Positions 9,401 through 62,812 of a DNA stretch of 64,000 nucleotides are shown one piece after another. The first letter of the stretch is position 1. Each line of letters opens with the position of its first letter. The stretch lies in the NCBI GenBank assembly GCA_964016885.1, contig OZ024746.1, positions 95,108,001 to 95,172,000 on the forward strand. Reading direction: 5' to 3'. Source of the stretch: Eledone cirrhosa (lineage: Eukaryota). Made by a program: the position numbers and the translations under genes. Under the pieces are notes generated by a model. The model was given only the letters and a program-made list of their open reading frames with translations. It did no database searches and was not told where the DNA came from.

Positions 9401-9709
9401 GGTTATTCGGGTTCTAAGTTGTGTGACATAAACGTATTTCGATTGGTTAAAAATTAGGGCTGTTGTAACAATTAAACCCCGATTTGAGGAGTTGAGGTGA
9501 GAGTGAGGAATGTGAAGTAGGCGGAGTAGGCGATAATGGAAGGCCATGTGGAGTGGGGGAGGTGTTTACGCATATTTCCTAATACACAGTGTATAGGGTG
9601 GGGGAGCACTGGGGCAGGGCGGTGTGGTGTAAGGATTGGAGGGCGGGGGTTTTACTCTAGCTGCAATCATCTTCAGTGAAGTGGCAATCACTGCATCACG
9701 TCCACTACA

Positions 9710-10050
9710 TGTGATGATGGTGGTGGTGGTGGTGGTGGTGGTGAGGGTGATGGTGGTGGTGGAAGTGACAGTGGTGGTGGTGGTGGTGGTGGTGGAGGTG
9801 ACGGTGATGGTGGTGACGGTGGTGGTGGAGGTAGTGGTGGTGGTGATGAGGAGGTGGAGGAGAAGGTGGAGGTGAAGGAAGAGGATGGTCGAGGTGACGG
9901 TGACATTGTTGGTGATTATGATGCTAATGGTGATGATAATGGTGGTGATAGTGGTGGTGATGGTAATTGTTGTGCTAACTATGGTGATGATGATGATGAT
10001 GGCGGCGGTGGCGTGGATCGTTGTGGTGCTAATGATGGTGTTGATGATAG
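9710..10050. repeat. (GGT/GAT)n low-complexity tract
   Basis: Directly visible. Confidence 0.9.
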
Positions 10051-10067
10051 GGAAGAGGGGGATACCG

Positions 10068-13000
10068 ACCACCACTACCACCAACACCACTGCCACCAAC
10101 ACCACTACCACCAACACCACTGCCACCAACACCACTACCACCAACACCACTGCCACCAACACCACTGCCACCAACACCACTGCCACCACCACCACTACCA
10201 CCAACACCACTACCACCAACACCACTGCCACCAACACCACTGCCACCAACACCACTGCCACCACCACCACTACCACCAACACCACTACCACCAACACCAC
10301 TGCCACCAACACCACTGCCACCAACACCACTGCCACCACCACCACTACCACCAACACCACTACCACCAACACCACTGCCACCAACACCACTGCCACCAAC
10401 ACCACTGCCACCACCACCACTACCACCAACACCACTACCACCAACACCACTGCCACCAACACCACTACCACCAACACCACTGCCACCAACACCACTACCA
10501 CTGCCACCAACACCACTCCAACCAACACCACTGCCACCAACACCACTGCCACCACCACCACTACCACCAACACCACTACCACCAACACCACTGCCACCAA
10601 CACCACTGCCACCAACACCACTGCCACCACCACCACTACCACCAACACCACTACCACCAACACCACTGCCACCAACACCACTGCCACCAACACCACTACC
10701 ACCAACACCACTACCACCAACACCACTACCACCAACACCACTGCCACCAACACCACTACCACCAACACCACTACCACCAACACCACTACCACCAACACCA
10801 CTGCCACCAACACCACTGCCACCAACACCACTGCCACCACCACCACTACCACCAACACCACTACCACCAACACCACTGCCACCAACACCACTGCCACCAA
10901 CACCACTACCACCAACACCACTACCACCAACACCACTACCACTGCCACCAACACCACTCCAACCAACACCACTACCACCAACACCACTGCCACCAACACC
11001 ACTACCACCAACACCACTACCACCAACACCACTGCCACCAACACCACTGCCACCAACACCACTGCCACCAACACCACTGCCACCAACACCACTACCACCA
11101 ACACCACTACCACCAACACCACTGCCACCAACACCACTGCCACCAACACCACTACCACCAACACCGCTACCACCAACACCACTACCACCAACACCACTGC
11201 CACCAACACCACTGCCACCAACACCACTACCACCAACACCACTACCACCAACACCGCTACCACCAACACCACTGCCACCAACACCACTACCACCAACACC
11301 ACTACCACCAACACCACTGCCACCAACACCACTGCCACCAACACCACTACCACCAACACCACTACCACCAACACCACTACCACCAACACCACTGCCACCA
11401 ACACCACTGCCACCAACACCACTGCCACCACCACCACTACCACCAACACCACTACCACCAACACCACTGCCACCAACACCACTACCACCAACACCACTAC
11501 CACCAACACCACTGCCACCAACACCACTGCCACCAACACCACTGCCACCACCACCACTACCACCAACACCACTACCACCAACACCACTGCCACCAACACC
11601 ACTACCACCAACACCACTGCCACCAACACCACTGCCACCAACACCACTGCCACCAACACCACTGCCACCAACACCACTACCACCAACACCACTACCACTC
11701 CAACCAACACCACTACCACCAACACCACTGCCACCAACACCACTACCACCAACACCACTACCACCAACACCACTGCCACCAACACCACTGCCACCAACAC
11801 CACTACCACCAACACCACTACCACCAACACCACTACCACCAACACCACTGCCACCAACACCACTGCCACCAACACCACTACCACCAACACCGCTACCACC
11901 AACACCACTACCACCAACACCACTGCCACCAACACCACTGCCACCAACACCACTACCACCAACACCACTACCACCAACACCACTACCATCAACACCACTG
12001 CCACCAACACCACTGCCACCAACACCACTACCACCAACACCACTACCACCAACACCACTGCCACCAACACCACTGCCACCAACACCACTGCCACCAACAC
12101 CACTACCACCAACACCACTGCCACCAACACCACTGCCACCAACACCACTACCACCAACACCACTGCCACCAACACCACTGCCACCAACACCACTACCACC
12201 AACACCACTGCCACCAACACCACTGCCACCAACACCACTACCACCAACACCGCTACCACCAACACCACTACCACCAACACCACTGCCACCAACACCACTG
12301 CCACCAACACCACTACCACCAACACCACTACCACCAACACCACTACCATCAACACCACTGCCACCAACACCACTGCCACCAACACCACTACCACCAACAC
12401 CACTACCACCAACACCACTGCCACCAACACCACTGCCACCAACACCACTACCACCAACACCACTGCCACCAACACCACTGCCACCAACACCACTACCACC
12501 AACACCACTGCCACCAACACCACTACCACCAACACCACTGCCACCAACACCACTGCCACCAACACCACTGCCACCAACACCACTGCCACCAACACCACTA
12601 CCACCAACACCACTGCCACCAACACCACTACCACCAACACCACTGCCACCAACACCACTACCACCAACACCACTACCACCAACACCACTACCACCAACAC
12701 CACTGCCACCACCACCACTGCCACCACCACCACTGCCACCAACACCACTGCCACCAACACCACTGCCACCAACACCACTACCACCAACACCACTGCCACC
12801 AACACCACTACCACCAACACCACTACCACCAACACCACTACCACCAACACCACTGCCACCACCACCACTGCCACCACCACCACTGCCACCAACACCACTG
12901 CCACCAACACCACTGCCACCAACACCACTACCACCAACACCACTACCACCAACACCACTGCCACCACCACCACTGCCACCACCACCACTGCCACCAACAC

Positions 13001-13102
13001 CACTGCCACCAACACCACTGCCACCAACACCACTGCCACCACCACCACTACCACCAACACCACTGCCACCACCACCACTGCCACCAACACCACTACCACC
13101 AC
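10068..13102. repeat. 15-bp satellite accaacaccact(a/g)cc, ~200 copies, with higher-order structure
   Basis: Directly visible; rare variants recur at 360-bp spacing. Confidence 0.98.
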
Positions 13103-13103
13103 T

Positions 13104-14404
13104 AATCGGCTAGACGTAACGCCTAAAAAAGCCCTAAAAAGCTGAATAAATGAAGTTTTTCACCTAATGCGGGCCCTAGGCCATAAAAAGTTGGATGTTC
13201 TTTGCTCACGGTATGAAGAAGAGACTGACTAATACATAGTTACAATTTCAAGGAAATCGGTCTGACATAACGCCTCAAAATACCCCTAAAAAGCTATTTT
13301 TAAAAAAAACGCAGTTTTTCCACCTCATGCGGGCCCTAGGGGATCAAAAAGTTGAATTCTTTATGTCTATAACACTCCCTGAAACATAACGCGGGCCGCC
13401 CACAGACCTAATCGTGGTAAACTGCATGCCTGGACAATATGTAAAGAAAATAAACCGAATACTCTGATGCAATTAGTATTAGGTATGCTTCTCCTTCCAT
13501 GTGGAGAAAATAGGCTTGGTGCTTTTGTACTTTAATAAAGTGGCATGAGTCAGCAGGACAGATGTCACCACTTATGTCAGAGGGAAGTCTGCAATGCTTG
13601 AGCAAGGCATGACGTGCAATCGGACAGCATATGGAGCCTTCTCGAAGGAGTCCACTGCACCTTAGTAAGTAACGCAACTGGACAAACGTTTACCAAACTG
13701 TGGGAATAATTTAACAAATTTAAAGAGGAGTGGTGCAATAAAATGGGCCCCGAGGCGTGTGCGTGTTCACTGGCGGCCCTAAACGAAAGGGTCGCCATCA
13801 GTTACTTCAAGGGCCCTCAAAAGGGCCGTGTAAGCCGTTCACTGACACCCCAGTAAGGAGGGGTAACCATCAACAATTTCAAGTGGTGGCCCTAAAAAGG
13901 GCCATGTGAGCGTTGCCTTGTAGCCCTTAATAGTGACTTTGACTGCGTTCTCTGACATTTGAAGGAGGGTGTTGCGGTTGCTTCCACTGGTAGCCTTTAG
14001 AATGAATGAGAATGCGTTCGCGGTCCGTTTAACAGCCATGCATTGACGCGCCGAGTGCGATGCAGACAGCCAGACATACAGACAGATATTATAAGGGCGC
14101 GTTCTGGACTAAGAGGGAATTGTGGGAAGTGACGTAATGCAGACATACAGACATGCATTATAAGGGCGCGACGTTATATGTATGTATCTATCTAAAAAGA
14201 GAACGACTAAGAATTATAGAGAGAGATCGCTAAATCGCCTAGTGCGGTCCCTAGGGCATTGAAAATTTGAAAGTTTCTTTTGCTCAGAACACTCCCTAAA
14301 AGATAAGTATTACATGTGTAAAGTTTGAAAACAGTCGGTTGGGTGCTTCTCGAGTTTTAGGGATTCAAACTAACACACACACACAGACATCGTCAGTTTT
14401 ATAC

Positions 14405-14656: not shown

Positions 14657-14660
<4 letters not shown>

Positions 14661-14794
14661 AAAAAGTCAGGACCCCGACGGCTGAGCTCCGGCCGTTTCG
14701 ACAGCTAGATCCGAACGGCCGGAGCTCAGTCGTCGGGGTCCTGACTCTTTTCTTATTACCCACTATACTACCCTAAGTATCGAGTACTCTGGTG
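14657..14794 (+). mobile_element. Palindrome+tail element, copy 1
   Basis: Arms gaaaaagtcaggaccccgacggctgagctccggccgtt / aacggccggagctcagtcgtcggggtcctgactcttttc, then tail tacccactatactaccctaagtatcgagtactctggtg. Confidence 0.85.
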
Positions 14795-14872
14795 ATGCGT
14801 TGTGTCCTTAAGCAAGACACTTCATTTCACGTTGCTCCAGTTTACTCAGCTGTAGAAATGAGCTTGTGACGT
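14795..14872 (+). mobile_element. SINE central-domain fragment (family B)
   Basis: gttgtgtccttaagcaagacacttcatttcacgttgctccagtttactcagctgtagaaatgag is homologous to ~24237-24300. Confidence 0.6.
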
Positions 14873-17199: not shown

Positions 17200-19560
17200 A
17201 GAGAGATCCACTCAGAGATCAGGTAGAGCCACTACTTCTACGAATTGAGTGATCACAGTTCCGATACTATGGATATGTGGTTAGAATATCTCAGGAAAGA
17301 ATCGCTGGTCAGATTTTACGTGCAAAACCAGCCATCAGGAGACCCAGGGGTAGACCCCGAGCAAGATAGTTCGATAACATACATGAATTTTGCTGGTCCC
17401 GCTTGGGGATCCAATTGGATCAGTTGGAGACGGTTGTTTCTGACAGGACTCGATGGAAGGATTGTTTGAGGACTCTGCAAGCACGACCCTCTCAGGAATA
17501 AGAATTATAAACAAAAATATGAACAATGATATAAGCCTTATCAAGGTTCAGAACGTTATACGCTATCAAAATAAATACTCCAAAGACGGCAAGGAATTGC
17601 TCCGATCCGAAGGAAATCCTGATAATGTGGCATAACCACTTTGATGAGTTCATCCGGTCGATTCCATCCAGACCTACAAAGCTGGTGGCAATGGTTGATC
17701 CCCCTTCATTTGACGAGGTGGCGAAAGCCATTGCCAAATTAAACAGCGGCAAGTCATCTGGAATGGATGGACTAAGCGCTGAGATCTTCAAGTATGTTGG
17801 TGATAACTTCTTAAACTGCCTCACTGATCTCTTTGTGAATGTTTGGGATGAAGAAGATGTACCGTAAGACTGGAAAGATGCATTGATGGTGGTACTTTAT
17901 AAAGGAAAGTAAGCAAAAGATTACTATAGCAACTACAGAGGTATTTCACTGCTATCTGTAGCTGGGAAGATCTTGTGCAGGATTTTGTTGGACAGATTGA
18001 TACAGCACATTGCTATTGATCTATTTCCTGTCCCAAAGTGGCTTTAGGAATGACAGAGGCACTTCAGGAGAAATGCATCGAGCAGCGTTTGGACTTATAC
18101 CAGGATTTTGTTGATCTGACCAAGGCCTTTGACACCGTAAATTGGGAGGCTTTGTGAGTTATTTTGGAGAGATTGAGCTGTCCTGAAAAGTTTGTGAACA
18201 TACTCAAGCTCTTCCACGATGACATGCAGACATGGGTAAATATTGGAGGTAAATTTTCTGAGTCAATCTCGGTTGAAAATGGTGTCAAGCAAGGTGATAT
18301 ACCTGCACCAACTTTGTTTGCCTTGTATTTTGCAATGGTGTTCTTCATGGCTTTCAAGGATTGTCAACATTGTATCTATCTCAGATATCACACTTCCACA
18401 AGCTGTTCAACCTCAGGTGTCTCACTGCCAACACTAATATACTGAGTACCTTGATCAGAGAATTTCTGTATGCAGATGATTGTGATCACTTCGCAGTGCT
18501 TTGGGACTGACAACCAGTCTGAATAAGACTGTCGTCATGTACAACCTGCTCCGGATAAAGTTTTCAATGAACCCTCTATACATGTATACAGTCAAAAGCT
18601 GAAGGTTGCTGATAGATTTGTGTATTTGGGGAGTACCCTGAGTGTGGCCTGCTCTCTGGATGCAGAAGTCGGTCTACGTATTAGTAAGGCAAGTGAGTCA
18701 TTTGGAAGGCTCAGCGACCGTCTGTGGTGCAGGCGAGGAATCACGATGAGGACCAAGGTGAGAGTGTTTGCTGCATGTGTAATGTCAGCATTGCTGTATG
18801 AGTGTGAGACATGGGTTGCCTACAAACGGCATATCAAAAGACTGGAACGATTTTACCAGTAGTGTCTCAGAAAGATGCTCGGTATCAAGTGTCAGATACA
18901 TGTCAGTCATGTTGAGGTACTTGAGAGAAGTGAATGTCGGAGCATTGAGAGTATGATCTACTAACGACGTTTGTGATGAACGGGACACCTGCAGAATGGA
19001 GGACAATCGAATCCCGAAACAACTTTTGTATGGCGAGCTTTGTAAAGGTAAGAGACCACCTCACAAGCCAAAGCTCCTATTCAAAGATTGTATAAAGGAC
19101 TCATTGAAAAAAAACTGACTTGGAGATAGAAGCTCTTGAAAGAGAAACTTGGCGTGGAATGGTGAATGATGGGGTCCATAATTTTGAGAACAGATGCATA
19201 GAGTACGAGAAGACTGAACGGGGTGTGCGTAAGCAATTCCCTGGTGAATCTCTCGAAACGATCAGTGTCTCCATTGAATTGGTGAATCCTGAGTGTGGAA
19301 AGGTTGGCTTGAGTAAATCTGGCCTCAGAAGCCACAGTTGCAGCCATGTTCAGAGAGAACCAGTAAACTATTATCTCCACGGTATTGTAGAAGTTCACAG
19401 GCAACCTGATGCAAGACCTGAGGCCAGCGAGATCCATAGTTGTCGTCAGTGTGTGAAGGAGTGCAAGTCTCTAGCAGGCTTGAAAAGCCATATCCGAGCG
19501 TCACACATCTGAATCTGACAAGCGATTGCAATACACTTAGTTTGCAACCATCATGTATGT
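17200..19560 (+). mobile_element. RTE-clade LINE, degenerate (stops and frameshifts), RT plus C-terminal C2H2 fingers
   Basis: Motifs GKSSGMDGLSAE, NYRGISLLSVAGKILCRILLDRL (~17930), FVDLTKAFDTVN (~18107), GVKQG (~18281), LYADD (18466-18480), FVYLGS, RIPKQLLYGEL. The 3' end gcaaccatcatgtatg runs into (TATG)n. Confidence 0.92.
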
Positions 19561-20651: not shown

Positions 20652-21393
20652 GTCTACTCTGGAGAGGATGAGCTCAGCCAGATTTAAAATGCGTGTGTGT
20701 GTCTATATATATATATATACACACAGACATATACACACACACACACACACTAAATCTCTGTCATTAGTGTCACTACGATTTGTGATAAAAAAAACCCAGA
20801 GATTTACACGTTGATGGCACAAGCCTAGCCATGCTGCTACGGACAAAAGACGTTAATAAGGTAACACAATCCCGCTATTTTCAGAGATTACAGCTTACCA
20901 AGTTATTTAGAGAGAATGAAGGGGAGAAATATATTAGGATGTGCAACACGTGTGAATGAATCATAGCAGCAAATGTCTTTCGACTAATGGAAAGTTTTGA
21001 GTCGAGCAGGCTAAGCAGATTCAATTTTACTTGTAATACACATTAAACAAATCTATCAACGCCACTAACACTTTCCTATTTCTCTTGTGGAGGTCCTTTC
21101 TGAAGCATCCTATTGGGTTATTTATGGATTGTTTCAGGTCTTCTACTTCTTATCGTGTCCACAAGAGTGTCAGTTACAGAGCTTGGCTAGATGTGGTTCC
21201 GCTACAACTGAACACATTGCTGTCCTTTCTCATTAAACTCTGCCAAGTCCTATGCTTGTGCAGGGGTGTTCCAGCAGGGGCCATTTAAGGAGGTGCTGTG
21301 TAGTCTGTGGTTCGATGTCGCAGTCACACACAACGTCCCCATCCTTTATATATCCCCATTTTGCAAGTAAGATAATTCGATGTGAATGAATTG

Positions 21394-22905
21394 CAGCTCA
21401 GCTATATCCCATCACAGCTGAGCCATATCCCATCACAGCTGAGCCATATCCCATCACAGCTGAGCCATATCCCATCACAGCTCAGCCATATTCCATTACA
21501 GCTCAGTCATATCCCATCACAGCTCAACCATATCCCATCACAGCTCAGCTATATCCCATCACAGCTCAGCCATATCCCATCACAGCTCAGCCGTATCCCA
21601 TCACAGCTCAGCCATATCCCATCACAGCTCAACCATATCCCATCACAGCTGAGCCGTATCCCATCACAGCTCAGCCATATCCCATCACAGCTCAACCATA
21701 TCCCATCACAGCTCAGCCATATCCCATTACAGCTCAGTCATATCCCATCACAGCTGAGCCATATCCCATCACAGCTCAGCCATATCCCATCACATCTGAA
21801 CCATATCCCATCACAGCTAGGGCCATATCCCATCACAACTCAGCTATATCCCATCACAGCTGAGCCATATCCCATCACAGCTCAGTCATATCCCATCACA
21901 GCTCAGTCATATCCCATCACAGCTCAGTCATATCACATCACAGCTCAGCCATATCCCATCACATCTGAACCATATCCCATCACAGCTAGGGCCATATCCC
22001 ATCACAACTCAGCTATATCCCATCACAGCTCAGCCATATCCCATCACAACTCAGCTATATCCCATCACAGCTCAGCCATATCCCATCACAGCTCAGCTAT
22101 ATCCCATCACAGCTCAGCCATATCCCATCACAGCTGAGCCATATCCCATCACAGCTCAACCATATCCCATCAGAGCTCAGCCTTATCCCATCACAGCTCA
22201 GCCATATCCCATTACAGTTGAGCCATATCCCATCACAGCTCAGCCATATCCCATTACAGCTGAGCCATATCCCATCACAGCTCAGCCATATCCCATCACA
22301 GCTCAACCATATCCCATCACAGCTCAGCCATATAACACCACAGCTGAGCTGTATCCCATCACAGCTGAGGCATATCCCATCACAGCTCAACCATATCCCA
22401 TCACAGCTCAGTCATATCCCATTACAGCTCAGTCATATCCCATCACAGCTCAACCATATCCCATCACAGCTCAGCCATATCCCATCACAGCTCAGCTATA
22501 TCCCATCACAGCTCAACCATATCCCATCACAGCTCAGCCATATCCCATTACAGCTCAGTCATATCCCATCACAGCTCAGCCATATCCCATCACAGCTGAG
22601 CCATATCCCATCACAGCTCAGCCATATCCCATCACAGCTGAGCCATATCCCATCACAGCTCAGCCATATCCCATTACAGCTCAGTCATATCCCATCACAG
22701 CTCAACCATATCCCATCACAGCTGAGCCATATCCCATCACAGCTCAGCCATATCCCATTACAGCTCAGTCATATCCCATCACAGCTCAACCATATCCCAT
22801 CACAGCTGAGCCATATCCCATCACAGCTCAGCCATATCCCATCACAGCTGAGCCATATCCCATCACAGCTCAGCCATATCCCATCACAGCTCAGCCATAT
22901 CACAT
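21394..22905. repeat. 21-bp minisatellite cagctcagccatatcccatca, ~72 copies
   Basis: Directly visible; produces the SQLSHIP ORFs. A 1-bp indel shifts the frame, which argues against coding. Confidence 0.97.
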
Positions 22906-23626
22906 TACTTGCTCCTCGCATTTGCAAAATATCAGTACGTCTGGTGAGGGATGAGCCTCACCAGACTTGTATGTTCTTGGCACTCTACAGAAATAAGAAC
23001 TCATCTCTCGCGCCCCATTGACTTGTGAAGTGGTGTGTGTGTGTGTGTGTGAGTGTGTGAGGGTGTGTGTGAGTGTGTGTGTGTGTGTGTGCGTGTGTGT
23101 GTGTGTGTGTGCTTGTTTGTGATTGTATTCACTTCTATAATTCTATCTATCATTTTTTTTTTTTTGCTTAACCTTCATTTATTATATTTATGTAATAAAT
23201 CGTCAGTAGCAACAGACAATATTCACAGTTGTATAAATAGCATTGCAAATATTGATGGAAATATGAAAGATAAAGAAATAAAGGATAAAAACGAAACCAA
23301 GCAAGGAATAGAGGGCGGGGGGGGGGGATAAAGAAGGACAGATCTGACTGTATAGGAAAATAGGAGAAAGGGCTATAAATGCCATAAATGAGAGGAAAAG
23401 AGGGGGAAAAGCAAGGACTATGAAAAAGGAGAGGGTGATAGGCTCTATTTATAATAGTCAAACAAATTCTCCTTCTTCAGCCTTATACTGAATGACGATA
23501 ATCTAACGGGGAAGTCTCTGGTGTGGTCATTTGACATGCTAGGAACAGTAGTGAAATCTCGTTTAAAGTCTTCTCACTATCGTCTTTAAAAACATGAATA
23601 TATTGGTTAACGTAGTCTGGGGTACA

Positions 23627-26431: not shown

Positions 26432-27395
26432 TTTCTTTATTGGCCACAAGGGCTGACATCAAGAAAAACATTACAGACGGTACATGACGGTACAGGACGG
26501 TACAGGACGGTACGATGTGGGTTTTGTGCGTGTAAATATTTTTTATTATTTATATAAGAAAAGAAAAAAAAAAAGGACATAGAAACATATATATATATAA
26601 ACAATAAAAATGAAAATTGAAACAATGAAAAATTCCTCAATAGGGGGAAACCTCCGAGGGTTACTCGTGGCGAAAACCACACAAAAGACTACGGCCACCC
26701 TGACCACCAGGGCAAGCGCCCTCTCTCAATTTTTCCATCTCTCAAACTACAGACGTATATTCAGAGCGGTCCCGTTCACTCGGACCATTCTCGCTACATT
26801 CACCCACCTTTCAACAAACTTGCTAGAAGGCGGCACTTCCTCTTCAAGTGAAACTTGAAAAAGTTAATTAGGGATACGCCGAAGAGGAAAGTGTCTGTCT
26901 TTAACCCTTTTAACCTTGTCCACCACACAATCTCTTTCGCCATGGCCACCAGGCAGATGAAAACCGCCTGCCCTTGCTCCTCGAAGGAAGACGGCGAGAC
27001 CATCTGCACAATGAACTCAGTCGATAACCGGATCAGTCCTACACGCGACAGCAACTGTTCGACATAGCTCCACAAGTCAGCAATGCTCGGGCACTGAACG
27101 AGTGCGTGCACGACGGTTTCGTCGCTCTGCGCGCATCTCGGACAGGCTCGGCTGACGGCACTTCCGTGCTTGTAGAACTTATCTCGAACCGGCAGCGCTC
27201 CCCGGTAGCACTGCCAGGCCAGAGATTTTTGGAAGTTATCCATAGGCCCTGGGCTGAAAGTTCTCCTCCGGAAGAGAGCAAACAGCTGATCTTCTTCGAC
27301 GCCCAGGATCTCTCCGATAACGTCGTCGCTCTTCCCCTCCACTAGTCCTCTATAGAACGCCGAGGTGGATGTTCCACCGATAGTGGTGCCCAGCA
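26430..27395 (-). mobile_element. Tx1/L1-clade LINE 3' fragment (zf-RVT domain) in an (AAT)n microsatellite
   Basis: ORF 26800-27396 contains LAWQCYRGALPVRDK...CPRCAQSDETVVHALVQCP (CCHC zf-RVT). (AAT)n lies on both flanks. Confidence 0.88.
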
Positions 27396-27413
27396 ATAAT
27401 AATAATAATAGTC

Positions 27414-28344: not shown

Positions 28345-28410
28345 GGAAATGTGGTAAGGAACCAGATGGACCATAACGTACCAAAGTACTTAATACTTAG
28401 GGTAGTAGAG

Positions 28411-28444
<34 letters not shown>

Positions 28445-28550
28445 AAAAAGTATGACCCCGACGGCAGAGCTCAAGCCGTTTCGACGGCTATTTCTGGACT
28501 CCAGAAATAGCCGTTTCGACGGCTCTGACGTCGGGGTCATACTTTTTCCT
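28345..28550 (-). mobile_element. Palindrome+tail element, copy 2 (tail separated from palindrome by (TA)n)
   Basis: Palindrome 28442-28550 with perfect outer arms aggaaaaagtatgaccccgacg / cgtcggggtcatactttttcct; tail in reverse complement at 28345-28413. Confidence 0.85.
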
Positions 28551-32588: not shown

Positions 32589-32655
<67 letters not shown>

Positions 32656-32658
<3 letters not shown>

Positions 32659-32845
32659 AACCAGTAAGACCCCGACAGCTGAGCTCAAGCCGTTTCGACG
32701 GCTAATTCAGTCCAGAATTAGCCGTCGAAACGGCTTGAGCTCAGCTGTCGGGGTCTTACTGGTTCCTATTACCCACTCTACTACCTCAAGTATTGAGTAC
32801 TTTGGTGCGTTATGGTCCACCTGGTTCCTTACCACATTTCCTTCG

Positions 32846-32847
<2 letters not shown>
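32656..32847 (+). mobile_element. Palindrome+tail element, copy 3 (perfect 53-bp arms)
   Basis: Arms 32656-32708 and 32715-32767 are exact reverse complements with a 6-nt loop; conserved tail to ~32841; (TA)n on both sides. Confidence 0.9.
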
Positions 32848-32892
<45 letters not shown>

Positions 32893-35864: not shown

Positions 35865-36048
35865 AGGAAAAGAATAAGGACCCCGACGACTGAGCTCCGG
35901 ACGTTTCGACAGCTAGCTCTAGCCGTCGAAACGGCTGGAGCTCAGCCGTCGGGGTCCTTACTCTTTTCCTATTACCCACTCTACAACCCTAAGTATTGAA
36001 CACTCTGGTGCGTTATGGTCCACCTGGTTCCTTACCACACTTTCTTTG

Positions 36049-36050
<2 letters not shown>
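35865..36050 (+). mobile_element. Palindrome+tail element, copy 4
   Basis: Arms aggaaaagaataaggaccccgacg... / ...cgtcggggtccttactcttttcct (to 35970) plus the conserved tail; (TA)n flanks. Confidence 0.88.
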
Positions 36051-36104
<54 letters not shown>

Positions 36105-48794: not shown

Positions 48795-51138
48795 TTTATT
48801 TTATAGAAGGAGCTTCTACAGGACTAGTACTGTTTCATTCAGATGAAATCTTCAGGAAAAAGGGGAGGAGATGAGAGGGAGAGATGGGTGATAGAGAGAA
48901 AGAGATAGTTTTTATAACTGAGAGAAAGATATATTGTTTTACATAGAGAGGTTGAGAACCGTTGGAAGATAATGTATAAATTAAAGGAATTTGAAAATTA
49001 ACGAAGGGAATTTATGTATGAAGATAGAGAGAAGAAATAATAATTGTGGATGAATATTCTAACGTCAAAAAAGGGTATGTTGATAAGTATTGTGGGCAAT
49101 TTCAAAATTAACGAAGAGAAAAATATTAAGGTTTGTGTGTAGAAGGATTTGAGAAAAATAATGTGAAGTTAAAGTTTGTGTATTGGAGGAATTGATAATA
49201 TATGCGAATAAAGAATTAATATGTATTAAGAATGAGTTCGTTGATGGGGAGAAAAAAATAATAAATTAAGGATGAAATTGAGATTAAAAAGATTTATGAT
49301 AGAGAGAAAAAAATAATGATTGCGGATGAATATTCTAACGTCAAAAAAACAAATGTATATGTTATGAAGGATTTTACAAGGTGAAGATAGAATGAGGGTA
49401 ATGAGTAAACAAGTATTATAGAGTGTATAATTCCCTTTAAAGTATGGTAGGAAGATGGGTATATTTTAAAGAGGTGTATGTATATGTGCCTTTGAGAAAA
49501 GATTCTAAATTGATAAAGAATTGAATATTAACTGTATACTTTGTGAAAAGTTCTATGGAATTTATGCAGGCAGATAGAAAACAAATCTGTACGTCTATTT
49601 ATTATAGAATCTAGGTTAGAGATAATGGTAAATTTTTCATTTAGGCAGAGATTACAGATTTTAGATAGAGAGCTGTTCAAGTATGAGGATGCAGAAGAAA
49701 CCTTCTTCCAAAAGATGGTATATTTAATGTTTTTGTCTTTTAAGGACCATATGAGTTCTGAGAGAGCAGTGTTGGTTCTTTTAAGTTTGTATTTGAAAGA
49801 TGAATGATGATTATAGAGACGAGCTTTAAAAGAGGTGGAAGTGGAGCCAAAATAGGTGAAGGAATTGGTGCTAGTTATAATTTTACATTCATAAATTAAG
49901 TTTTTATCGAGACAATGGTTGTTGAGAGGACATTTATTTTTAATGCGGCAGTTGCAATTAGAGAGATTATTAATGAGTGACCTAGTGTTATCTATAGAAG
50001 GAATTGGATTGGAGAAGTTGTTTGCGATAGAATAATAGGAATAATAGTTTCTTGATTTAGAGTTGGATTATGAACATTTAGCGAAGTTGTGTTTGACGTT
50101 GTATTTGGGTTTACAGAAGTTAGCCTAGGGTTTACAATGACGTCGGGAGTACTATTACTGTTATTATGAAATTCAATGTTGGAAGGAAGAGATTTAGTAT
50201 TTAGTATTTTATTGTTGTGTTTAGAGATGATGTTGGAAATATTGGAGGATGTGGAATAAGAAATTTGAAGGTGTGTTTGTTAAATATTTTACTATAGATA
50301 TGTGAGGGAGGGAAGCATTTATTTAAGGCACTAAAAAATAATTTAGGAATATTGTTATTAATAGAGATGGAGAAAGGAGCATTATACCAGATTATGTTTT
50401 TGTATCTAGGTCTTTTATTAAAATTATTGGAATGATCATGATTAATTATTCTACTGTAATACTTATCAACATACCCTTTTTTGACGTTAGAATATTCATC
50501 CACAATTATTATTTCTTCTCTCTATCTTCATACATAAATTCCCTTCGTTAATTTTCAAATTCCTTTAATTATACATTATCTTCCAACGGTTCTCAACCTC
50601 TCTATGTAAAACAATATATCTTTCTCTCAGTTATAAAAACTATCTCTTTCTCTCTATCACCCATCTCTCCCTCTCCACCTTCACTCTCATCTCCTCCCCC
50701 TTTTTTCATCCTTTCCACCCCCCCCCTCCCTAAATAAAATACTTTTTCCTCGCACATATCCTCCTTTCGTTAATTTTCAAATTTTTTTAATTTATACATT
50801 ATCTTCCAACGGTTTTCAACCTCTCTATGTAAAACAATATATCTCCTCTCAGTTATAAAAACTATCTCTTCTCTCTATCACCCATCTCTCCCTCTCATCT
50901 CCTCCCCTTTTTCATCCTTCCCCCCCCTCTCTAAATAAAATATTTTTCTCAATATCACACATCAATCTAAACCACTTTTCATATGTTGATTTAAAACTGC
51001 ACTATCCACAAGTGTTTTTTAGCCTTCATATCATGTTCTCCTGTTTTATCTGATGAAAACACAAATATTATTGCATGATGATGTTTGTTTTTGAAATGCG
51101 CATAATAAAATACATGGAACTCCTTTAACCATCTTTTG

Positions 51139-54676: not shown

Positions 54677-54914
54677 GTACTGAAGGTGTTCAATCAGACG
54701 AGAATATCGATATCCACTGACAGACTGCTTAATCAACATATATTTATTGAATTTAATAATTTTTTTTTCTATTAAAAAGAAGTAATGGTGACAACACAAT
54801 TGCTTGTTGTTGTTGTTGCTTTTGTTATAGTTGTTGTTACTGCTGTTGCTGTCTATTATGGTGATTTATAGAGACATTTCCCCCCGCTTCCGAGTATGTT
54901 CACAGATCAACCAA

Positions 54915-55775
54915 CCTAAGCTGTATACAGCTATGGTACGACCACACTTGGAATTCGCATCATCAGTCTGGAACCCCCATCTTGCTCAGAACATTGACCT
55001 CCTGGAAACTGTTCAGAGACGTGCAACCAAGCGCATACCCTCCATCAGACACCTACCATACTCTGAACTCCTTGCTTCCCTGGGCATGGATTCATTGAAG
55101 CTCCGACGTCTGGCAATGGACTTGGTAAACACCCACAAAGTTATTAACCATCTCGCCAACAACAACCCTGAGCACCTTTTTGATCTCCATGTGTCTAACA
55201 CATGTGGACATGCCTACAAAGTCAGAAAACAGCACAGCTCCCATGACTTTCGGAAACATTTTTTCACACTTAGAGTTGCTGAAGCATGGAACAAACTGCC
55301 TGCGTCAGTTGTTAGCTGCCGAAACACTGCATCCTTTAAAACCTCCATGGAACAAACTGCCTGCGTCAGTTGTTCGCTATCGAGACACTGCATCCTTTAA
55401 AACCTCCATGGAACAAACTGCCTGCGTCAGTTGTTAGCTATCGAGACACTGCATCCTTTAAAACCTCCATGGAACAAACTGCCTGCGTCAGTTGTTAGCT
55501 ATCGAGACACTGCATCCTTTAAAACCTCCATGGAACAAACTACCTGCGTCAGTTGTTAGCTGCCGAGACACTGCATCCTTTAAAACCCTCATGCTTCCCG
55601 AAATTCGCCAAAACTACACCTGATGTCCCCCTTCCATACACATGCACACATGTGTATATCATGACTCATGCACTGTTCATTTTCCTGACGTTTGTACATT
55701 ACCCTATGTACTATACATACACTTTTGATGAATTGTAGTGCACCTGAGCACTGTACACAATATTTTCCTTATAAA
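54915..55775 (+). mobile_element. CR1-clade LINE 3' fragment with internal 61-bp tandem amplification
   Basis: LYTAMVRPHLEFASSVWNPH...LETVQRRATKRIP...GHAYKV...RKHFFTLRVAEAWNKLP. Five 61-bp units at 55285-55589. Confidence 0.9.
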
Positions 55776-57449: not shown

Positions 57450-57590
57450 GGGGACGGGATACCGGCCCTACAAGGAGGTGTGTATAGGGACGACGCCCTG
57501 TTTACCGTTAGGAACCATAGCCCCGGTAGAATATAGAACCTTCACAAACACATACACAGGTTCTTCAAGTCATACGGCCTATCCGTAACT

Positions 57591-59231
57591 ATGGACCTCA
57601 ACCACCAGGTGGTCAATTTCCTGGAGTTGAGTACGGGCCTATACAAGCCATACCATAAGCCTGGAGAGAGCCTTTCGTATATTAATTATGCCTCCAACCA
57701 CCCGAAGCAGACTCTCAACTCCATAGTTTATAGCATCTCACATAGGATCTCGAGGCTCTCCGCCAATGTAGATATCTTCAACCAAGCGGCAGATTACTAC
57801 AATAAGGCCTTGATAAGCACCGGGTTTAACCGAAGAATCTCCTACATCCCTAATGCTAGCTCCAGAAATCACCCCTCTCATAAGACTAACGTTATAGTAA
57901 GCCATACCTATAACCGAACGCGCTGCGGCTTTGAAAGAGTCAGATATAATAGTATAGAAAATCGCACTAGGGAACACGGCCATATTGTTAATTACACTAG
58001 CGATAGTTTTGGTAACTTACCACACAATAAGGATCACAACCCTGGTGACAGTGACCACTGTAGCCTACTTGAATTATTCCCCTACTATAAGATCAACGAA
58101 GGCGATGGCCTACTACCAACGCCTTCCAACCAGCGTCTTCCTATACATAAACGTAGCAGAAGGAAGCCGAGTGCACCCGAGCATAAAGCGAAAGGGACAC
58201 GTTACGGGCTACAGCACAATAACATGCATAAGAGCGGTCACCCTGATAGCACAACCCTTAACAAACGTACAAAGACACGGAATCTCCACCGTAACGTCCT
58301 ATGGTTCCATCCTCCCTACTCTCGGAGTATGGCCTCCGACATACCCTGGATATTCTTCGAAGCCTTAGAGAAGAACTTCCCACCCAACCATAAGTATAGG
58401 AAAATCCTGAATAGGAACAATATAAAAATATCCTTCTCTACTACTCCTAACCTAGCAGACATCATAGGAACAACTAATCACAGTAAGATCACCAAGACAC
58501 ATCACCTTAGCACCGATACACCTAGACCTGACAACAACTATATTGGCCTTGACGACTCCCTAGCAACACCCAATAGTGCTGGCAACAGCCAATACAGACG
58601 CAACCAACATAACCGCGACATGACTGGGAAATATGCAGGTGACTCGCACGGGTCACCGGACGGCAACAGAAGACGCTGCTGCGTGCGGAATAATAATGGG
58701 TCTACCCCGCAGGCGGTGGGTTATAATGGTACCAATGACAGGTGTAGGGGCGTAGGTAACAACATAGATAGCAATAATAATAGCCTTACCTTGGGAACTA
58801 GAAGGGACCGCGACCGAAATTACAACTGCCGTGACAAGGGACGCTGTCCCTTTAGGGGTAACTGCCTGACTGATAGGGTTATTTATAGGTGCACGGTAAC
58901 TAGCCATAATAGCGTTAAACATTATATAGGGGCTACCTCTGGCCCGTGCAAAAATAGATTTCTAACACATCTCCACTCTTTCGCAAACACGAAACTAAGA
59001 CACTCCACTTCGCTCGCGAACTACATCACAGCATTAAAAGACTCAAACATCAGCTTCTCCACACACTGGGAAATTGTCGGCAGAGCAGCACCATACAACT
59101 TCAAGAGAAAGTGTGAGCTTTGCATCCTGGAGCTTTACCATATCATAACGGCACCCCACGAGCTCATCAACAGCAGAGCAGAAACGACGATAAGCTGTAC
59201 ACACCACTTAAAAATATCCTTCTCCAGATAG
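57591..59231 (+). pseudogene. PLE RT C-terminus/thumb, Zn-knuckle and GIY-YIG endonuclease ORF remnant (546 aa open)
   Basis: VNFL, YKPYHKP, SNHP, VLWFHPPYS, CRDKGRCPFRGNC, VIYRC...HYIGAT...NRFLTH, CELCILE. Confidence 0.9.
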
Positions 59232-61151: not shown

Positions 61152-61532
61152 GCATGATGGCTGCAAACTCTACTAACAGTATTGCAATCGCTTGCAGTAT
61201 TGCAAGCACTTTCAGGCTACGGCCAGCCACACGAACCTGTAACAGATCCTGCACAAGCAATGCTTGTGTTTTGAAGGGTTTTTAAGTGAGAAAAGGCATT
61301 GCACTCGACCAATCCCACTCGCTGAGCATCGAAAACACTACCCAAAAAGGAGAACTGGTCAACATCATCGGATGCTTCCGAAGCCGCAGGGTTTTTTTTT
61401 TGGGGGGGGGGGTCAGAGTTTCCCTCTCCTAGAAAGGTGTTGTAATAACAACTGGGGGCCTTTTACTTCCAGGTGAAAAAAAACATCTACTATTTGGATG
61501 GCCGTTGACTCTGCTGAGTTCCTCCACCCTTT
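61152..61532 (-). mobile_element. Further RTE-associated short element (5'-truncated) in (TACA)n
   Basis: Minus strand ggaggaactcagcagagtcaacggccatcc...aacctgcggcttcgg...gagtttgcagccatcatg. Confidence 0.65.
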
Positions 61533-61585
61533 GTACATACATACATACATACATACATACATACATACATACATACATACATACA

Positions 61586-61613
<28 letters not shown>

Positions 61614-61616
<3 letters not shown>

Positions 61617-62812
61617 CTCTCCGACAACATCTACGAACCTCGAGCGTAGGGGCCTGTTTCTCGAGCAATTCTGTCTGCAGGAAACAGATAAGATCATGAG
61701 AGTTGGGAAGGAACTCCTCGAGAGATATTCCCTGTGTGATAATCAAAAACTCACACCCAGAGAAGTCGCTCAGCAGTATCGCAGTGAATCCATGGATGAA
61801 AAACTGCATGCTTATCAGCAAAAAATCATGCATGGATATGTTGCCAGGAAGTTCCAGAGTGAGAGTAATATAGATAAGGAAAGTAGTCTATCTTGGACCA
61901 ACAACCGCTATATTGGCTCCCACTTTGAAGGATACGCTTTTGCAATCCAAGAACAGGAGATTAACACGAAATACCTGATTCACAAAAGAAATAGGGATGC
62001 AGGCAAAGCACCTAGATGTGATAACAAGTGCAGACTCTGCAGAACTAACATCGAGGCTATCACCCATGTCATCAGCAGCTGTCCAGAGATGTCATCGCGG
62101 TACTATCTACCTATGAGGCATGATGTAGTGGCCAAAACACTGTACAATGCAGTTCGTAAAAAGGATAGCCCCTATAATAAACACATTAAAAGCTACAGCA
62201 ATGTGGAAGACATCCATGTACATAATATGAAAGGGTACTAGTGGGATGTTCCAGTAAAAACCCCAATAAAATGCAGGCATAACAGACCAGATATTATGAT
62301 ATGGGACAGGGAGAAGAAAGTATGCACAGTAGTGGAAATTAGCTGCCCAACAGATGCCAATATAATATCATAGATTAGCGAAAAGGATAATATTTATGCA
62401 GAACTGATGAGAAATCTGCAGATACTCCACCCTGATTACACCTTCAGATTTATGCCTGTGATTATTGGGGCACTGGGGTATGTTAGTAACTGCCTCAATA
62501 CAAATCTTGAGAAGCTAGGCTTCAGAGGAACAGAAAGAACACAACTAGTTAGGAAACTACAAGTACAATCCATTAATGGAACAGTAAAAATATGTAAAAC
62601 ATTCCAAAAAATTTGCATCTAATAACTGCATATACACATGTACAGATACAAAGCATATACACATGCACACATACAACTCAAAACATACACATCCACACAT
62701 ACAATAACATCCATATCTACACATGCATACATACTTAATCTACCTAGTTGATGTTGTGTAAATTCCAATGAGAGAGTCTTGTGTCTATGTTAGAAACATA
62801 AAACCAGAAGAA
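61614..62812 (+). mobile_element. RLE-type non-LTR retrotransposon (R4/Dong-like) 3' portion in (TACA)n
   Basis: AFAIQEQEINTK, CRLC...THVISSC (CCHC), RHDVVAK, HNRPDIMIWD...VEISCP...KDNIY, PVIIGALG; one in-frame stop at ~62241; (TACA/CATC)n flanks. Confidence 0.9.

What the first reader, a model, noticed from the sequence alone, without database searches (positions are those of the whole stretch)
32656..32847. Four-copy palindrome+tail family whose two arms co-vary within each copy
Seen: the same element occurs at 14657, 28345-28550 (inverted), 32656 and 35865, always against (TA)n. It is a ~100-115-bp GC-rich palindrome followed by a conserved ~75-nt unique tail (truncated in copy 1). Copies differ from each other, but the differences are mirrored on both arms: copy 1 gtcagga/tcctgac, copy 2 gtatga/tcatac, copy 3 ccagtaaga/tcttactgg (53-bp arms, perfect), copy 4 taagga/tcctta. 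The symmetry centre differs in every copy while the outer boundary (taGGAA...TTCCta) is essentially fixed. Inference: one arm is templated from the other, either at mobilisation (hairpin-primed synthesis) or by later intra-element conversion, or the copies derive from different self-symmetric master subfamilies. I know no named family with this layout.
Basis: partly seen in the sequence, partly recalled or inferred. Interest (0 to 1): 0.8.

Follow-up and report, generated by a model that had tools for sequence, protein, structure and literature searches.

The report
Penelope retroelement head-to-head run-off copies
The four palindromes are short insertions of a very abundant Penelope-like retrotransposon, and their fixed length likely arises because two reverse transcripts, one from each end of the cut DNA, run off the capped start of the element's RNA and are joined head to head.

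Summary
The arm and tail are 98-100% identical to the ends of a 3,542-bp element with an intact 717-aa ORF carrying RT and GIY-YIG-type motifs: a Penelope-like element (PLE) with Hydra-clade protein motifs and at least 40,211 tail matches in this genome. Inverted truncated copy + one-sided tail + (TA)n target is the published PLE layout. Arms co-vary because both come from one subfamily. What I did not find in the papers read: both arms stop at one place, 53-63 nt upstream of the tail (59 of 90 tail arms, 50 of 65 inverted arms). The stop is an initiator-like A, 29-31 nt below a TATA-like box, and an extra untemplated G precedes it in 52 of 100 single-arm copies versus 0 of 16 at a control position. 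In long copies either arm can be longer by hundreds to thousands of bases. This favours two target-primed cDNAs running off a capped RNA start over the published self-priming idea. No RNA data were available to confirm the start site.

The parts
32657..32708 (-). Copy 3, inverted arm: element positions -2 to -53 (0 = first base of the tail); inferred cDNA primed at the inner tail boundary
   Evidence: 100% match to the natural full-length unit from L085; coordinates read
32709..32767 (+). Copy 3, direct arm: positions -59 to -1; begins at the initiator-like A that is the modal stop of both arms
32768..32848 (+). Copy 3, PLE tail (79 nt plus TA shared with the target); in full-length tandem units it precedes the ORF by about 90 nt
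   Evidence: 100% match to tails in L081, L083-L087; ORF starts at +172
32591..32656 (.). (TA)n target, left of copy 3
32847..32890 (.). (TA)n target, right of copy 3
14658..14800 (+). Copy 1, older subfamily, two arms, tail cut short
   Evidence: 81-89% to the young unit
28345..28550 (-). Copy 2, older subfamily; G in front of the -59 start; (TA)n run between arm and tail
35866..36051 (+). Copy 4, older subfamily, two arms plus full tail
   Evidence: 89% to the young unit

Best explanation
Each palindrome-plus-tail is a short insertion of a 3.5-kb Penelope-like retrotransposon, likely made of two reverse transcripts that were primed from the two ends of a cut (TA)n target and joined head to head. 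Shown: identity to an ORF-bearing element, two fixed outer ends at the two tail boundaries (each abutting TA), one shared inner stop near -59, an extra G at that stop, and unrelated inner ends in long copies. Inferred: the endonuclease cuts both strands of (TA)n. One DNA end primes RT at the inner tail boundary, the other at the outer one, so only one arm has the tail. The RNA starts, capped, at -59, so priming in the 5' copy of the terminal repeat runs off after about 59 and 140 nt and adds a C opposite the cap. Host end joining fuses the two cDNA ends with small losses or locally copied filler, so the centre varies while the outer ends do not. Long copies arise when RT primes in the 3' copy or jumps template. 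Arms co-vary because both are copied from RNA of the same subfamily.
For: Arm and tail flank intact 717-aa ORFs in direct, tandem and inverted arrangements, with the tail at either end. RT motif YRDD, DKT, CxCx5C, CxxC and CxH are conserved in 119 homologues. In 90 young copies (of 4,292 matches, all from contig C1): 65 parse as inverted arm + direct arm + tail, and 62 of the 64 simple ones abut TA at the arm end. Inner ends fall at -63..-53 in 59 of 90 tail arms and 50 of 65 inverted arms, mode -59. The template base before -59 is T in 49 of 49 continuing copies. Yet where -59 joins a TA target it is G in 52, T 32, A 11, C 5 of the first 100 of 207 listed matches (counted by hand), versus G in 0 of 16 at -56 (Fisher p=4.5e-5). 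A TATA-like word lies 29-31 nt upstream across subfamilies (sequences). Long copies: 2 of 21 junctions have inner ends within 40 nt, shuffle mean 0.52, p=0.10; head-to-head 122 versus tail-to-tail 5. Published in vitro work on another PLE shows both strands cut and extended and RT starting at the two tail ends (PMC11167929, main text parts 1-2 read). Untemplated G marks capped L1/SVA RNA (PMC4859970, passages).
Against: The start site and cap are inferred from DNA alone. Many RTs add bases at any RNA end (own knowledge), so the G shows a physical 5' end better than a cap. In the mixed set of non-continuing arms G is only 30 of 80. 35 of 65 short copies have arms within 3 nt of each other, and copy 3 itself (6-nt loop) fits a snap-back equally well. 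A few copies are symmetric at odd positions (L104, L117, L133, L163). The long-copy set is biased to ORF-bearing loci and small (21). Pfam found no family on the full ORF. Same-molecule versus same-lineage templates could not be separated.
Confidence: 0.7

Rival explanations
1. Same PLE, but the second arm is made by snap-back of one cDNA (or self-priming of an antisense RNA, as proposed for rotifer Penelopes), then annealed or joined to the other end.
For: Arms near-identical within a copy. 35 of 65 short copies near-symmetric, and a 6-nt-loop centre recurs (6 copies plus 1 mirror form). Self-priming is proposed in PMC3846280 (passages read).
Against: Tail-less arm longer in 19 of 65, sometimes with almost no direct arm (L109, L121, L132, L141). 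Inner ends of long copies differ by hundreds to thousands of nt. Both arms can reach -59 in one copy with filler between (L154, L162, L173, L180). Microhomology over 2 nt in only 2 of 65. It may still account for a minority of copies.
Confidence: 0.15
2. Two-cDNA joining as above, but the stop at -59 is a cleaved RNA end (non-canonical ribozyme or nuclease) or a structure block, not a capped transcription start.
For: PLEs often carry hammerheads in the pLTR (PMC8557442). The arm folds into a hairpin. RTs can add bases at uncapped ends (own knowledge).
Against: No CTGANGA hammerhead core on either strand of the unit and no Rfam ribozyme match. TATA-like and initiator-like words are correctly spaced. 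A structure block would not add a position-specific G.
Confidence: 0.1
3. The palindrome-plus-tail is a self-contained non-autonomous element (MITE or SINE-like master) copied whole, its arms kept alike by conversion.
For: Very high copy number; some centres recur.
Against: 67 distinct centre sequences in 101 matches, 54 seen once, commonest palindromic centre 6 (at least 19 of the 101 are ordinary long copies caught by the pattern). There is a continuum from tail-only to full-length copies. Old copies have arms that diverged freely. The tail lies outside the inverted repeat, unlike a MITE.
Confidence: 0.05

Closest known systems
Hydra-clade PLEs (Craig et al. 2021, PMC8557442), e.g. Hydra-1_Obim listed in its File S1
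   Same: C-terminal endonuclease; DKT, CxCx5C linker, CxxC and CxH around the conserved E and N; RWK in 73% of homologues (RWR here); (TA)n target
   Different: Unit 3.5 kb (Hydra generally under 3 kb); no canonical hammerhead found; tail about 80 nt versus the 30-40 nt quoted for PLEs; no sequence comparison or tree with named Hydra families was run
Poseidon PLE of Anolis (PAc; Frangieh et al. 2024, PMC11167929)
   Same: RT starts at two internal sites that bound the tail; both target strands are cut and extended; AT-rich target
   Different: Different clade, has a hammerhead; priming there was reported as non-homologous to the target, whereas both ends here abut a TA also present in the element; a fixed in vivo run-off product is not described in the parts read
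Penelope of Drosophila virilis and Adineta vaga Pen families (PMC2377424, PMC3846280)
   Same: [quoted passage not shown]
   Different: Palindromes there were read as self-priming; here the commonest product is a ~200-bp double run-off copy present in thousands
L1 twin priming and retroviral strong-stop DNA (twin priming: PMC4859970 passage; strong-stop recalled)
   Same: Two target-primed cDNAs give an inversion; run-off at a capped 5' end with an extra G
   Different: L1 twin priming inverts adjacent, non-overlapping RNA segments (own knowledge); here both cDNAs copy the same segment, giving a palindrome

Membership tests
Penelope-like elements (EN+) | Single ORF with PLE-type RT | tested here: met
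   717-aa intact ORF; YRDD and flanking RT motifs conserved in 119 homologues; Pfam gave no hit on it
Penelope-like elements (EN+) | GIY-YIG endonuclease in the same ORF | tested here: met
   C-terminal VIY..YIG..R..H..E..N motifs conserved; 39% identical (E 2e-35) to window ORF 49531-50067, which has a weak GIY-YIG hit (E 0.0029, below cut-off); best homologue P0001 carries PF01541
Penelope-like elements (EN+) | pLTRs, partial tandems and inverted truncated copy | tested here: met
   L081-L092, 3,542-bp tandem in L085-L086
Penelope-like elements (EN+) | [quoted passage not shown] | tested here: met
   about 80 nt, at either end
Hydra clade | C-terminal EN; DKT; CxCx5C; CxxC and CxH around E and N | tested here: met
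   compared with the description in PMC8557442 section 11
Hydra clade | RWK motif | tested here: inconclusive
   RWR in this ORF; R100 W98 K73% in homologues
Hydra clade | (TA)n insertion preference | tested here: met
   62 of 64 arm ends on TA repeats; the tail end was selected for TA by the search pattern
Hydra clade | Canonical hammerhead ribozyme | tested here: not met
   No CTGANGA on either strand of the unit; no Rfam ribozyme. Filed as Hydra-like, not as a member.
Hydra clade | RT tree placement with named Hydra families | not tested
   Reference sequences were not obtained
Naiad clade | N-terminal GIY-YIG | tested here: not met
   EN is C-terminal
MITE of Tc1/mariner or hAT | Inverted repeats at both termini and a DDE transposase partner | tested here: not met
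   Tail lies outside the repeat; the partner ORF is RT plus GIY-YIG

The most novel reading that the evidence does not exclude
This family records, in thousands of genomic copies, a strong-stop step of the Penelope cycle: a dimer primes both target ends at the two tail boundaries of the 5' repeat, both cDNAs run off the cap after about 59 and 140 nt, and failure to jump template yields the short palindrome. It would settle the origin of PLE head-to-head inversions in favour of dual priming, map a PLE promoter from DNA alone, and show a hammerhead-free Hydra-like lineage.
Probability: 0.5. Interest if true: 0.65.

Novelty: new member of a known kind. Interest (0 to 1): 0.4.

Why it matters
The element itself is an ordinary, very successful Penelope-like retrotransposon whose short copies could be mistaken for MITEs or miRNA hairpins (Rfam gave sub-threshold miRNA hits). 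Its value is as a natural experiment. How PLEs form inverted repeats and tails is called an open question in PMC8557442 and PMC3846280, and this family offers thousands of near-identical junctions plus intact ORFs with which dual priming, run-off at the RNA start and self-priming can be told apart.

Tried and rejected
DNA similarity search of the own genome returned nothing because common words are skipped; uninformative. Rfam on window 14000-37000 gave only sub-threshold miRNA-like hairpin hits, and on the full unit no ribozyme. Pfam found no family on the full ORF. No RNA holder was listed for the element, so expression and the start site were not tested. Laying contigs of three runs of unrecorded kind showed TA loose ends at both tail boundaries and a steep depth step at about -59, but the tool states depth is no copy number and the runs may be the assembly's own sample, so it is not used as support. 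A 29-nt probe with the TA phase before G gave 16 matches and was replaced by the N-containing probe. Comparing long arms could not separate same RNA from same lineage: own arms 0-0.9% apart, median to others 1.7-2.7%, but nearest others as close (10 pairs). Earlier findings of this scan: none by sequence or words. Paper searches for a run-off or cap reading of PLE palindromes found none; subscription papers and bioRxiv supplements were not searchable, and of the PMC8557442 supplement only search hits in the metadata file were seen, so its hammerhead list and Hydra sequences may bear on clade membership. PMC13282606 and bioRxiv 10.64898/2026.07.22.740005 (passages only) held nothing on this layout.

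Full report
Observation. The four copies are present as described. Ungapped arm pairing is 56 of 57 in copy 3, 49 of 54 in copy 4, 40 of 49 in copy 1 and 35 of 56 in copy 2, which has an indel and a flipped loop. The family is huge: 40,211 exact matches to a 26-nt tail word, reversed control 0, in a 3.0-Gb genome.

Identity. Among the first 30 tail matches, three continued upstream into shared non-palindromic sequence with RT-like and endonuclease-like frames. A protein search gave 51,156 candidates, of which 150 were scored. Twelve loci with long frames showed intact or near-intact ORFs flanked by the window's arm and tail at 94-100% identity (98-100% in the youngest), in partial tandems, in inverted arrangements and in a 3,542-bp tandem array. 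The ORF is 717 aa, starts 172 nt after the tail start and ends 1,216 nt before the next tail. It has 2,067 homologues at E<=0.001 among 8,000 scored. In 119 of them the motifs RW(K), DKT, YRDD, CxCx5C, YIG, CxxC, E, N and CxH are conserved. These are the features given for the Hydra clade of Penelope-like elements (PMC8557442 section 11), whose metadata list an octopus family inserting in (TA)n. Against plain membership: no hammerhead core on either strand, a longer unit, and no tree with named families. Pfam gave no hit on the ORF. That the host is an octopod is my recollection from flanking repeats and was not tested.

Known layout. PMC8557442 (passages) describes 5'-truncated copies, an inverted truncated copy at the 5' end, a tail at either end and (TA)n targets. 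PMC11167929 (main text parts 1-2) shows in vitro that a PLE protein cuts and extends both strands and starts RT at two internal sites bounding the tail. PMC3846280 (passages) read junction palindromes as self-priming on an antisense RNA and left the question open.

Anatomy of 90 young copies (of 4,292 matches to a 73-nt pattern; all from contig C1), mapped on a natural unit from L085 with 0 at the tail start. 65 of 90 parse as an inverted arm starting at the tail boundary, a direct arm and the tail; two more (L140, L142) show the same by eye, and the rest are single-arm, tail-only, long or complex. 62 of 64 simple copies have TA repeat directly at the arm end. The inner ends are not random: 59 of 90 tail arms and 50 of 65 inverted arms end at -63 to -53, mode -59. 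Junctions are blunt in 19, have filler in 29 (often copied from nearby sequence) and 1-6 nt of overlap in 17. The inverted arm is longer by more than 3 nt in 19, the tail arm in 11, and 35 are within 3 nt. A tight pattern for such short centres has 7,377 matches genome-wide.

What is at -59. It is the A of TTAGTC or TCAGTC, which resembles the initiator consensus (recalled), 29-31 nt below a TATA-like word kept across subfamilies. The template base before it is T in 49 of 49 continuing copies, but G in 30 of 80 non-continuing arms, a mixed set that includes some older long copies and counts both arms of a copy. In the cleaner test, copies whose -59 joins a TA target, the preceding base is G 52, T 32, A 11, C 5 in the first 100 of 207 matches (counted by hand), and G in 0 of 16 at -56 (p=4.5e-5). 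Untemplated G is taken as the mark of a copied cap in L1 and SVA (PMC4859970 passages). D. virilis Penelope also starts transcription in its pLTR (PMC2377424 passages). The start site remains an inference: no RNA run was listed.

One cDNA or two. In 21 junctions with both inner ends beyond -100, only 2 lie within 40 nt (shuffle mean 0.52, p=0.10); either end can carry the tail; head-to-head junctions number 122 against 5 tail-to-tail (ORF-biased sample). A snap-back of the tail-bearing cDNA cannot give a longer tail-less arm, and a snap-back of the tail-less cDNA cannot supply the tail. Two primed cDNAs explain both. Snap-back in a minority, copy 3 included, is not excluded.

Arm co-variation. 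In 72 short two-arm copies the outer subfamily motif is the same on both arms in 60. For the 18 not carrying the young motif, own-arm distance is 0.064 against 0.161 to other copies (lowest of 5,000 permutations 0.101), and the own arm is nearest in 13 of 18. Within the young subfamily own-arm distance (0.019) is like that between copies (0.025, 0.014). So co-variation reflects a shared subfamily template, with no need for later conversion. Centres are too varied for a palindromic master.

Verdict. A new, young, very abundant member of the Penelope-like elements with Hydra-type protein motifs; confidence in that identity about 0.97. The dual-priming, run-off-at-cap account of the short palindromes is about 0.7 and was not found in the papers searched. 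Interest 0.4: ordinary class, useful mechanistic test case.

Noticed in passing
window 57537-59231 (+) and 49528-50067 (-): Fragments of two other PLE families of the same type: 34-46% aa identity to the master ORF, no DNA similarity to it.
   Followed up: partly
L085-L086 (G000:C1:91472000-91491800): At least five head-to-tail 3,542-bp units about 99.8% alike; at the 5' end a 55-bp piece of the ORF (near -1844) is repeated about 48 times, as if RT had re-copied one short template stretch.
   Followed up: partly
L140, junction upstream of the tail arm: The centre holds several tandem copies of a 12-nt piece of the arm end, again suggesting reiterative copying.
   Followed up: no
L113 and L166: The short tail arm is preceded, in the same orientation, by the 5' part of the element (0..+899 and -43..+143), which looks like a template jump from the RNA start to an internal site.
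   Followed up: partly
unit from L085: No AATAAA on the sense strand of the whole unit, so transcripts may read through the 3' tail.
   Followed up: no
element position -63: A minor stop at -63 (TCATTT, also initiator-like) may be a second start site.
   Followed up: no
window 9566-13159 and 21376-23021: Long coding-like tandem repeats (15-nt and 21-nt units) giving open frames on several strands.
   Followed up: no
window 19081-19512, 26800-27411, 54831-55400, 61477-62241: Frames that look like pieces of other non-LTR retrotransposons (recalled resemblance, not tested).
   Followed up: no
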